From the human T2T-CHM13v2.0 reference genome, Homo sapiens, in the NCBI GenBank assembly GCA_009914755.4, contig CP068257.2, forward strand, positions 15,776,001-15,840,000: a stretch of DNA of 64,000 bases, written 5' to 3'. This document shows, in pieces, positions 7,237 to 8,017 of this stretch. Both the position numbers and the translations under genes were made by a program. Every line of letters begins with the position of its first letter. The stretch's first letter is position 1. The notes beneath the pieces were generated by a model. The model was not told where the DNA came from, did not search any database, and saw only the letters and a program-made list of their open reading frames with translations.

Positions 7237-7298
7237 TGTGGAAAAAAAATTCATAAAATGATACACCAAAAAATAAGTCAATTTTATAGTTCAGTGAT

Positions 7299-7646
7299 TT
7301 TTCTTTTTTTTTTTTTTTTTTTTCCTGAGACAGATTCTCACTCTGTTGCCCAGGCCGGAGTGCAGTGGAGTGCAGTGGAGTGCAGTGGAGCGCAACGAAG
7401 CGTATTGGTGCGATCACAGTTTACTGCAACCTCTGCCTCCCTGGCTCAAGCAATCCACCCCCAACCTAAGCCTCCTGAGTAGCTGGGACCACAGGCCCAT
7501 GATACCTGGCTAATTTTTGTATTTCTAGTACAGACAGGGTTTCGCCATGTTGGCCAGGCTGTTCTGAACTCCTGACCTCAGGCGATCTGCCTGCCTCAGC
7601 CTCCCAAAGTGCTGGGATTACAGGTGTAAACCACCGCACCTGGCTG
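7299..7646 (-). mobile_element. Alu (antisense) carrying an internal GAGTGCAGTG triplication; copy 1 of a tandem duplication
   Basis: Poly-T, then gagacagattctcactctgttgcccaggccggagtgcagtggagtgcagtggagtgcagtggagcgc...gattacaggtgtaaaccaccgcacctggctg. Confidence 0.9.
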
Positions 7647-7672
7647 ATAAGTTAATTTTACAGTTTGATGAT

Positions 7673-8017
7673 TTTTCTTTTTCTTTTTCTTTTTCTTTTT
7701 TTAAGACGGAATATCACTCTGTTGCCCCAGCTGGAGTGCAGTGGAGTGCAGTGGAGTGCAGTGAAGTGTGGTGGCATGATCATAGTTCATTGCAACCTCT
7801 GCCTCCCTGGCTCAAGCAATACCCCCGACCTCAGCCTCCTGAGTAGCTGAGATCACGGGCCCGTACCACCATGCCTGGATAATTTCTGTATTTTTTTGTA
7901 GAGACATGGTTTCACCATATTGCCCAAGCTGGTCTTGAACTCCTGGACTCAAGTAATCTGCCCACCTCAACCTCCCAAAGTGCTGGGATTACAGGTGTGA
8001 GCCACCATGCTTGGCTG
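7673..8017 (-). mobile_element. Alu (antisense) with the same GAGTGCAGTG triplication; copy 2 of the tandem duplication
   Basis: Reads tttttcttt...aagacggaatatcactctgttgccccagctggagtgcagtggagtgcagtggagtgcagtgaagtg...gattacaggtgtgagccaccatgcttggctg. It is preceded by the same roughly 30-bp flank (ataagtYaattttaYagtt..tgatttttc) as copy 1. Confidence 0.9.

What the first reader, a model, noticed from the sequence alone, without database searches (positions are those of the whole stretch)
7266..8017. Tandem duplication of a roughly 375-bp unit containing an Alu with a triplicated GAGTGCAGTG motif
Two adjacent antisense Alus (7299-7646 and 7673-8017) are preceded by the same roughly 30-bp non-Alu flank: ataagtcaattttatagttcagtgatttttc versus ataagttaattttacagtttgatgatttttc. 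Both carry the same unusual internal expansion ggagtgcagtg-gagtgcagtg-gagtgcagtg. Normally that motif occurs once in the Alu consensus. Two independent Alu insertions could not share both a private internal triplication and the same upstream flank. So this is a segmental tandem duplication of flank plus Alu, made after the Alu inserted and after the internal motif expanded. The two copies differ at roughly 10% of positions, which points to an old event. It is a clean local example of Alu-mediated or replication-slippage duplication.
Basis: seen in the sequence. Interest (0 to 1): 0.55.

Follow-up and report, generated by a model that had tools for sequence, protein, structure and literature searches.

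The report
Ancient tandem duplication of an Alu
A 374-bp piece of primate DNA, made of one old Alu repeat, its A-tail and 31 bp of neighbouring sequence, was copied head-to-tail tens of millions of years ago; this is a real but ordinary example of a known kind of repeat-derived duplication.

Summary
A gapped local alignment gives unit 1 (7273-7646) against unit 2 (7647-8017). The units abut exactly, and homology stops at both outer edges. Each unit holds a 31-bp non-Alu flank (26/31 identical, P<0.0005), a T-tract and a full-length antisense Alu. Both Alus carry an expansion of the 10-mer GGAGTGCAGT at the same Alu position. None of the ~70 other Alus in the window has it.

- The start is 7273, not 7266.
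- Divergence is about 16% (K2P 0.18) plus 21 gap columns, not about 10%.
- The arrays have 5 and 4 units (3 perfect plus 2 or 1 degenerate), not 3.
- The pair is no closer to each other than copy 1 is to the AluSx consensus, so the proposed identity test is not met cleanly. Shared private states and the shared flank carry the argument.
- Alu-Alu recombination is not supported. The junction has no homology, no chimeric Alu and no third flank copy.

The array predates the duplication, because both copies share a degenerate unit. The perfect units were probably renewed later.

One oddity remains. The unit boundaries match the predicted Pol III primary transcript of the Alu. The match is post hoc and untested.

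Verdict: an ancient, non-homologous tandem duplication of low interest.

The parts
7273..7646 (-). Tandem unit 1 (374 bp): flank, T-tract, antisense Alu and 1 nt beyond the Alu head
   Evidence: Local alignment end points; self-BLAST hit 7273-7646 against 7647-8017
7647..8017 (-). Tandem unit 2 (371 bp), same layout, starting at the base after unit 1 ends
7273..7303 (.). Non-Alu flank of unit 1 (ATAAGTCAATTTTATAGTTCAGTGATTTTTC). On the Alu-sense strand it is the 3' trailer after the A-tail
   Evidence: 26/31 identical to 7647-7677, P<0.0005
7647..7677 (.). Non-Alu flank of unit 2 (ATAAGTTAATTTTACAGTTTGATGATTTTTC)
7304..7323 (-). A-tail of Alu 1, seen as T20 on the + strand
   Evidence: TRF 7298-7323
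7678..7702 (-). A-tail of Alu 2, evolved into a (TTTTTC)n microsatellite followed by T7
   Evidence: TRF 7672-7700, period 6, 100% matches
7324..7645 (-). Alu 1 body, full length, old AluS-like with some AluJ-like positions; 84.8% identical to AluSx
7703..8016 (-). Alu 2 body, full length; 80.9% identical to AluSx
7357..7406 (.). 10-bp array in copy 1: GGAGTGCAGT x3 (7357-7386), then degenerate GGAGCGCAAC and GAAGCGTATT; +40 bp against the Alu consensus
7733..7772 (.). 10-bp array in copy 2: GGAGTGCAGT x3 (7733-7762), then degenerate GAAGTGTGGT; +30 bp against the Alu consensus
7268..7273 (-). A6 on the + strand, which is T6 on the Alu-sense strand. It is the first T>=4 (Pol III terminator-like) run downstream of the Alu tails. 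The left duplication boundary lies 1 nt inside it
   Evidence: sense-strand reading
7202..7241 (+). Neighbouring 34-nt Alu 5' fragment plus GTGTGG, inverted relative to the two Alus and able to pair with either Alu head. It may be relevant to the right breakpoint but is not shown to be part of the event
   Evidence: Inverted repeats I10 and I11; duplex energies -50 and -53 kcal/mol

Best explanation
An old full-length Alu (AluS-like with some AluJ-like positions) inserted in antisense orientation. Slippage expanded its internal 10-mer GGAGTGCAGT into a short array. The Alu consensus already has TGG(A/C)G repeated 10 nt apart at this site, and the 10-mer is itself an imperfect dimer of NAGTG.

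Later, a 374-bp segment was duplicated head-to-tail at the DNA level by a non-homologous event. The segment ran from 31 bp beyond the A-tail to 1 nt beyond the Alu head. Candidate events are end-joining between sister chromatids, fill-in of staggered nicks, or a replicative template switch with little or no microhomology.

The two copies then decayed independently to about 16% divergence. By comparison with the divergence of other Alus in this window, that suggests roughly 25-40 Myr, which is an inference. One A-tail became a (TTTTTC)n microsatellite. The arrays changed by one unit (5 against 4). The three leading units in each copy stayed or were made perfect through continued slippage turnover or gene conversion.

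Shown: the structure, the shared flank, the shared array and the absence of homology at the junction. Inferred: the order of events, the age and the joining mechanism. No function is indicated; this is neutral repeat-derived sequence.
For: - Exact head-to-tail alignment, 7273-7646 against 7647-8017.
- Flank 26/31 identical, P<0.0005, and flank identity 83.9% is about equal to Alu body identity 84.2%, so both have the same age.
- The private array occurs only in these 2 of about 70 Alus, at the same position (AluSx 242-251) and in the same register.
- Shared derived states: 17 against a background mean of 5.4 (sd 3.2). Among pairs that include only one of these two Alus, the mean is 6.0 and the maximum 15.
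- The shared degenerate unit carries common derived bases G2->A and C7->T.
- There is no third copy of the flank right of unit 2 (P=0.77), and no homology between the sequence left of unit 1 and the end of the unit (P=0.17). The junction is therefore non-homologous.
- The class is documented. A published survey found 2,663 Alu-derived tandem repeats in the human genome, mostly of two units and without end repeats (PMC3389668).
Against: Both boundaries fall at special places. The right boundary is 1 nt beyond Alu position 1; the chance of landing within +/-1 nt is about 3/375. The left boundary lies inside the first T>=4 run downstream on the Alu-sense strand; 7.4% of non-Alu positions are that close to such a run. 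Random DNA breakpoints do not predict this.

No orthologous single-copy state could be examined, so 'after insertion' rests on about 4% of shared divergence. That divergence could instead be private to the source Alu.

They were checked only indirectly: AluY copies in the window match at up to 95.7% over 276-281 bp.
Confidence: 0.75

Rival explanations
1. RNA-mediated in-situ duplication. The duplicated unit is a reverse-transcribed copy of the Alu's own Pol III primary transcript (Alu +1/-1, A-tail, 30-nt trailer, terminal U). It was inserted at a nick or break in its own terminator. The + strand A-run 3' end (…CACCAAAAA) primed on the transcript's 3' U's, and the cDNA end was joined to the old unit. 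A variant is ordinary L1-driven retrotransposition of Alu 2's RNA into the edge of its own tail, with a 31-bp target-site duplication.
For: On the Alu-sense strand, each unit starts 1 nt before Alu +1. Unit 1 ends 1 nt into the first T>=4 run (T6, 7273-7268) downstream of the tail. These are the limits of a predicted Alu primary transcript as described in PMC4333407. The joint chance under random breakpoints is roughly 0.008 x 0.07. The layout flank-Alu-flank-Alu is formally the same as TSD-Alu-TSD next to a pre-existing Alu. PMC3389668 suggests some TE tandem repeats are 'triggered during retrotransposition'.
Against: - The coincidence was noticed after the fact.
- No such mechanism is documented for Alu to my knowledge.
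- Standard Alu retrotransposition primes on the A-tail and does not carry the trailer (established knowledge, not tested here).
- A retro-copy landing within about 30 bp of its own source is about 1e-8 per insertion under random integration (my estimate).
- A 31-bp TSD is longer than the usual 7-20 bp.
- The extra C at -1 is a poor Pol III start.
- No U/A remnant is visible at the 7646/7647 junction.
Confidence: 0.1
2. Homology-driven unequal exchange. This would be either Alu-Alu non-allelic recombination or exchange between the two target-site duplications of a single Alu, giving TSD-Alu-TSD-Alu-TSD.
For: Alu-rich regions are prone to Alu/Alu rearrangements (PMC6071635 and PMC4356517, listed). 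The window is 30% Alu. A weak 9-mer similarity links the pre-tail flank to the sequence right of unit 2 (GTTTGATGA 7663-7671 against GTATGATGA 8021-8029).
Against: - No directly oriented Alu lies left of unit 1. The only Alu piece there (7202-7235) is inverted.
- There are two Alus and two flanks, not three Alus, and there is no chimeric Alu.
- The flank has no third copy right of unit 2 (P=0.77).
- The 9-mer is not significant (P=0.24) and lies in a different register.
- The 16 nt ATAAGTYAATTTTAYA of the flank cannot be explained by a 9-15 bp TSD exchange.
Confidence: 0.03
3. Two independent Alu insertions from a rare source lineage that already carried the 10-mer array. The second landed in the tail region of the first and made a 31-bp target-site duplication.
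For: Alus often insert into the A-tails of other Alus (established knowledge). Several same-orientation neighbouring Alu pairs exist in this window, for example 36072-36345 with 36373-36628, and 44093-44371 with 44443-44720.
Against: None of the other ~70 Alus in the window has the array. I know of no described Alu subfamily with a 30-40 bp insertion at this site. The two also share other private states (G1->A, the GGGGGT block). The required TSD is unusually long.
Confidence: 0.02

Closest known systems
TE-derived two-unit tandem repeats of the human genome (Ahmed & Liang 2012, PMC3389668)
   Same: A full Alu repeated head-to-tail in two units. It has no end direct repeats and no truncated terminal unit. 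In that survey this is the largest group (6,817 of 7,276) and has no established mechanism.
   Different: Here the unit also contains 31 bp of non-TE flank and the A-tail. The copies are much more diverged (16%) than most catalogued cases. Tandem Repeats Finder did not report the 374-bp period, so the locus may be missing from catalogues built on that program.
Alu-derived minisatellites (Jurka & Gentles 2006, Gene 365:21, as cited in PMC3389668)
   Same: This applies to the internal 10-bp array. A short segment of Alu sequence is expanded in tandem, and the founding unit is bracketed in the Alu consensus by a short direct repeat (TGGAG...TGGCG, 10 nt apart). Copy number differs between the two paralogues (5 against 4).
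   Different: The array lies at AluSx positions 242-251, outside the two AluS hotspots reported by Ahmed & Liang (59-137 and 176-206). I could not read the Jurka & Gentles paper itself.
Alu/Alu-mediated rearrangements (NAHR or microhomology between two Alus)
   Same: A duplication involving Alu sequence in an Alu-dense region.
   Different: The breakpoints are not inside two directly oriented Alus, no chimeric Alu is formed, and one breakpoint lies in unique AT-rich DNA. The Alu is the cargo of this duplication, not its substrate.
Alu Pol III primary transcript with unique 3' trailer (Conti et al. 2015, PMC4333407)
   Same: The duplicated unit has the same limits as the transcript predicted for this Alu: about +1 through the A-tail and trailer to the first T>=4.
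   Different: Trailers are not normally carried into new Alu copies, and no transcript or retro-copy evidence exists here. The resemblance is positional only.

Membership tests
Alu SINE (7SL-derived dimeric element) | Full-length match to the dimeric Alu consensus (left and right monomers with A-rich linker) | tested here: met
   BLAST and MAFFT against AluJo, AluSx and AluY cover positions 1-282 in both copies, at 84.8% and 80.9% identity to AluSx.
Alu SINE (7SL-derived dimeric element) | 3' A-tail and flanking target-site duplication | tested here: inconclusive
   A-tails are present (T20 at 7304-7323; (TTTTTC)n followed by T7 at 7678-7702). The candidate TSD (GTTTGATGA / GTATGATGA) is not significant, P=0.24.
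Segmental tandem duplication (single ancestral unit copied in place) | The copies abut head-to-tail, and homology extends beyond the transposable element into unique flank | tested here: met
   7273-7646 against 7647-8017; flank 26/31 identical, P<0.0005.
Segmental tandem duplication (single ancestral unit copied in place) | Flank and element show the same divergence, and the copies share private mutations absent from other family members | tested here: met
   Flank 83.9% against Alu body 84.2%. Seventeen shared derived states against a background mean of 5.4. The private 10-mer array occurs only in these two.
Segmental tandem duplication (single ancestral unit copied in place) | A single-copy ancestral state exists in an outgroup species | not testable with these tools
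   No primate genomes are available here. The metagenome scan and the exact-ORF look-ups found no copy of the locus.
Alu-derived minisatellite (slippage between short direct repeats) | The tandem unit derives from internal Alu sequence, and the founding unit is bracketed by a short direct repeat in the consensus | tested here: met
   TRF reports period 10 with 3.8 and 3.7 copies at 96% matches. The consensus reads CTGGAGTGCAGTGGCGCG, with TGG repeated 10 nt apart (alignment, by inspection).
Alu-derived minisatellite (slippage between short direct repeats) | Copy number changes over time | tested here: met
   A 10-bp indel separates the paralogous arrays (5 against 4 units). The units show an age gradient: 0, 0, 0, 3 and 4 differences from the perfect unit in copy 1, and 0, 0, 0 and 3 in copy 2 (sequences).
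Alu/Alu-mediated (NAHR) duplication | Both breakpoints lie inside directly oriented Alus, producing a chimeric Alu and an Alu-spacer-Alu-spacer-Alu layout | tested here: not met
   The left breakpoint (7272/7273) lies in unique AT-rich DNA. The only Alu piece upstream is inverted (I10/I11). The sequence left of unit 1 has no homology to the end of the unit (P=0.17).
L1-mediated retro-copy (applied to unit 1) | A TSD of typical length (7-20 bp) directly flanks the element, with an A-tail and an L1 endonuclease-type target | tested here: inconclusive
   The flanks could formally be a 31-bp TSD around Alu 1. That is longer than usual, and it would require the copy to land beside its own source.

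The most novel reading that the evidence does not exclude
The duplication was templated by RNA. The Alu's own Pol III primary transcript, running from the start site through the A-tail and 30-nt trailer to the terminator U's, was reverse-transcribed at a break in its own terminator and ligated in. This would duplicate exactly one transcription unit in place. If general, it would be a previously undescribed route from SINE transcription to local tandem duplication, and a candidate for the unexplained majority of two-unit TE-derived tandem repeats.
Probability: 0.08. Interest if true: 0.6.

Novelty: new member of a known kind. Interest (0 to 1): 0.15.

Why it matters
In itself it matters little. 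It is one more neutral, ancient, repeat-derived micro-duplication in an Alu-dense region, with no sign of function.

It is a tidy teaching example of three layers of tandem repetition in about 750 bp: a 374-bp segmental unit, a 10-bp Alu-derived minisatellite, and a 6-bp microsatellite born from an A-tail. It also shows array units staying perfect while the surrounding sequence decays.

The one point that could matter more widely is the match between the unit boundaries and the predicted Alu transcript. Published surveys leave most two-unit TE tandem repeats without a mechanism. A genome-wide test of that boundary rule is cheap to run.

Tried and rejected
- **Identity test.** The pair ranks only 471st of 1431 Alu pairs, at 83.4%, and copy 1 is closer to AluSx at 84.8%. 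I rejected this as a discriminating test, because old copies duplicated soon after insertion behave this way. I used shared derived states instead. That count is partly inflated by gaps at truncated ends in other pairs.
- **Third flank copy / TSD-mediated exchange.** None found.
- **Original TSD.** Only a non-significant 9-mer.
- **Orthologues or independent copies of the locus.**
  - Exact look-up of two locus-specific ORFs in public assemblies found nothing.
  - A metagenome scan with the degenerate flank pattern gave 92 chance hits and no Alu-bearing copy of the locus.
  - I ran no further search on this, because the chance of success was low for a low-interest finding.
- **Locus identification.** There is no CpG island. 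The only ORFs of 130 aa or more are Alu- or repeat-derived. Rfam gave only a tRNA, a U6-like copy and an Alu/SRP hit.
- **Hairpin-driven slippage of the array.** DNA folding z-scores were -0.5 to -1.1, which is unremarkable.
- **Literature search for the doubled 10-mer.** No paper contains it.
- **Other flank-sharing Alu pairs in the window.** None found; the other near-diagonal hits are Alu plus A-tail only.
- **Assembly artefact.** Rejected, because the copies differ at about 16% of sites.

Full report
**1. What is there**

The region was read directly on both strands. A local alignment with free ends, using generous flanks on both sides, returns 7273-7646 against 7647-8017. The second copy starts at the base after the first ends, and homology stops at both outer edges. 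Self-BLAST of the window gives the same pair.

Each unit has three parts on the + strand:
- A 31-bp non-Alu flank: 7273-7303 in unit 1 and 7647-7677 in unit 2.
- A T-tract: T20 at 7304-7323 in unit 1. In unit 2 it is (TTTTTC)n followed by T7 at 7678-7702, and TRF reports period 6 at 100% matches.
- A full-length antisense Alu (7324-7645 and 7703-8016), followed by one further shared base, G.

**2. Is it more than chance?**

- The flanks match at 26/31, and no shuffle out of 2000 reached that score.
- The doubled 10-mer occurs only in these two elements in 64 kb, where none is expected by chance. The window contains about 70 Alu copies covering 30% of the sequence.
- No other neighbouring Alu pair in the window shares non-tail, non-Alu sequence.

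**3. Divergence**

The units align over 362 columns at 84.3% identity, with 44 transitions, 13 transversions and 21 gap columns; K2P is 0.18. Flank identity (83.9%) equals Alu-body identity (84.2%), as expected if flank and Alu were copied in the same event.

**4.

The two Alus are 83.4% identical to each other. Copy 1 is 84.8% identical to AluSx, and the pair ranks 471st of 1431 Alu pairs in the window. The test 'more alike than either is to the consensus' is therefore not cleanly met. That does not refute the duplication. It means much of the divergence came after the event.

Shared derived states are more informative. The two share 17 non-consensus states, against a background mean of 5.4 (sd 3.2). 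Among pairs that include only one of the two, the mean is 6.0 and the maximum 15. They share G1->A, which none of the 52 other Alus has, and a GGGGGT block in place of AGGAGA. They also share an insertion at the same Alu position.

A three-point estimate puts about 4-9% of divergence on the shared branch. That shared branch could be time between insertion and duplication, or peculiarities of the source Alu. It leaves about 6-10% on each private branch.

Other Alus in this window give a rough scale: AluY copies are about 4-8% from their consensus, AluS 8.5-14% and AluJ 15-18%. By that scale the duplication is roughly as old as the youngest AluS elements. I infer about 25-40 Myr, with wide error.

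Their accuracy is supported only by matches of up to 95.7% over 276-281 bp to AluY copies in the window.

**5. The internal array**

Against the consensus, copy 1 has +40 bp and copy 2 has +30 bp.

| Copy | Coordinates | Units (register GGAGTGCAGT) |
|---|---|---|
| 1 | 7357-7406 | three perfect, then GGAGCGCAAC, then GAAGCGTATT |
| 2 | 7733-7772 | three perfect, then GAAGTGTGGT |

(Unit sequences.) 'Triplicated' therefore understates the arrays, which have 5 and 4 units and differ by a 10-bp indel.

The last degenerate unit is shared, with the same two derived bases (G2->A, C7->T). So an array already existed, and had already aged, when the segment was duplicated.

The three perfect units are a different matter. 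They are identical within and between copies over 30 bp, although non-CpG sites differ at 15.1% between the copies. This gives P=0.007 for 30 identical sites and P=0.028 for no private change in either copy. Only 28 of the 52 background Alus keep even one intact copy of this 10-mer.

Long identical runs also occur elsewhere in the alignment. Two runs of at least 30 bp were observed against 0.07 expected under uniform mutation. The second lies in a stretch whose CpGs had already decayed in both copies. For that reason I treat the signal as moderate.

My reading is that the array predates the duplication. Its leading units have since been renewed by slippage turnover in each copy, or by conversion between copies.

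The site is prone to slippage for a simple reason. The consensus reads C-TGGAG-TGCAG-TGGCG, with TGG repeated 10 nt apart, and the 10-mer is an imperfect dimer of NAGTG; TRF also reports period 5. Single-strand folding of the arrays is unremarkable, with z-scores from -0.5 to -1.1.

**6. Mechanism of the 374-bp duplication**

The junction (…CCTGGCTG|ATAAGTT…) shows no microhomology with either reference boundary (…CACCAAAAA|ATAAGTC… on the left and …CTTGGCTG|TATGTAT… on the right).

- The sequence left of unit 1 is not homologous to the end of the unit (P=0.17).
- The flank has no third copy right of unit 2 (P=0.77).
- A candidate original target-site duplication (GTTTGATGA 7663-7671 and GTATGATGA 8021-8029) is not significant (P=0.24).

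Alu-Alu recombination is excluded by the layout. It would give three Alus with a chimeric middle copy, and the only Alu piece upstream (7202-7235) is inverted. Exchange between target-site duplications is also not supported.

The best-supported account is a non-homologous DNA-level tandem duplication in which the Alu was cargo. This matches the largest class in the published survey of TE-derived tandem repeats: two units, no end repeats, mechanism unknown (PMC3389668).

**7. An unexplained coincidence**

On the Alu-sense strand, each unit reads C, then Alu +1 to the 3' end, then the A-tail, then a 30-nt trailer ending …GACTTAT. Unit 1 is followed by TTTTT.

The unit therefore starts 1 nt before the Alu 5' end. 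It stops 1 nt into the first T>=4 run downstream of the tail (T6, 7273-7268). These are the limits of the Pol III primary transcript predicted for such an Alu (PMC4333407).

Under random breakpoints the right boundary has a chance of about 3/375, and the left about 7%.

Three readings remain open:
- Chance. The match was noticed after the fact.
- An RNA-templated copy of the transcript inserted at its own terminator, or the formally equivalent 'retro-copy with a 31-bp TSD beside its source'.
- A DNA-structure effect at the right boundary. The inverted 34-nt Alu 5' fragment at 7202-7235 can pair with the Alu head (-50 and -53 kcal/mol). The outer end of that pairing coincides with the breakpoint.

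I give the RNA-mediated reading about 0.1. Standard Alu retrotransposition does not carry the trailer, a landing beside the source is extremely improbable under random integration, and I know of no precedent. None of these readings can be tested with the tools available here.

**8. Orthologues**

I could not obtain orthologous or independent copies of the locus. Exact ORF look-ups found nothing. A metagenome scan with the degenerate flank pattern found only chance matches. The window has no CpG island and no recognisable gene, so the protein route to primate assemblies was closed.

**9. Verdict**

- start coordinate (7273, not 7266);
- divergence (about 16%, not about 10%);
- number of array units (5 and 4, not 3);
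- timing of the perfect units (probably renewed after the duplication);
- mechanism (non-homologous, not Alu-mediated).

This is an ordinary member of a known class, with no indication of function. Interest is low, apart from the cheap genome-wide test suggested by the boundary coincidence.

Noticed in passing
window 7186-7258: A 34-nt fragment matching Alu positions 1-34 (7202-7235, + strand) is followed by GTGTGG and A8. It is flanked by a perfect 13-bp direct repeat, AAAATTCATAAAA (7186-7198 and 7246-7258). This is a 3'-truncated Alu 5' end with an A-run and an apparent target-site duplication. That is the opposite of the usual 5' truncation of L1-mediated insertions. It is inverted relative to the two duplicated Alus and can pair with their heads.
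   Followed up: partly
window 33885-33958 (-): A tRNA-Gly (GCC) gene or pseudogene. Rfam tRNA score is 66.6 bits, and ARAGORN agrees.
   Followed up: partly
window 10641-10741 (+): A U6 snRNA-like sequence covering the full model (64.8 bits; gathering score 44). It is probably a U6 retropseudogene.
   Followed up: no
window 11418-11650: A non-Alu tandem repeat with a period of about 105-109 bp and about 89% identity between copies, seen in the self-BLAST. It lies between two partial Alus.
   Followed up: no
window 7672-7700: The A-tail of Alu 2 has become a perfect (TTTTTC)4.8 microsatellite, while the paralogous tail of Alu 1 is T20. This shows a microsatellite arising from an Alu tail after the duplication.
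   Followed up: partly
window 6682-6968 (+), 8615-8895 (+) versus 7324-8016 (-): Full-length sense Alus flank the antisense pair on both sides, within about 1 kb. Their arms are 82-90% complementary (inverted repeats I1 and I8). If transcribed, this arrangement would form long double-stranded RNA.
   Followed up: no
window 7273-8017: Tandem Repeats Finder (maximum period 500) did not report the 374-bp two-copy repeat, although the copies are 84% identical. Indels shift the spacing from 366 to 376 bp. Catalogues built on that program may miss old duplications of this type.
   Followed up: no
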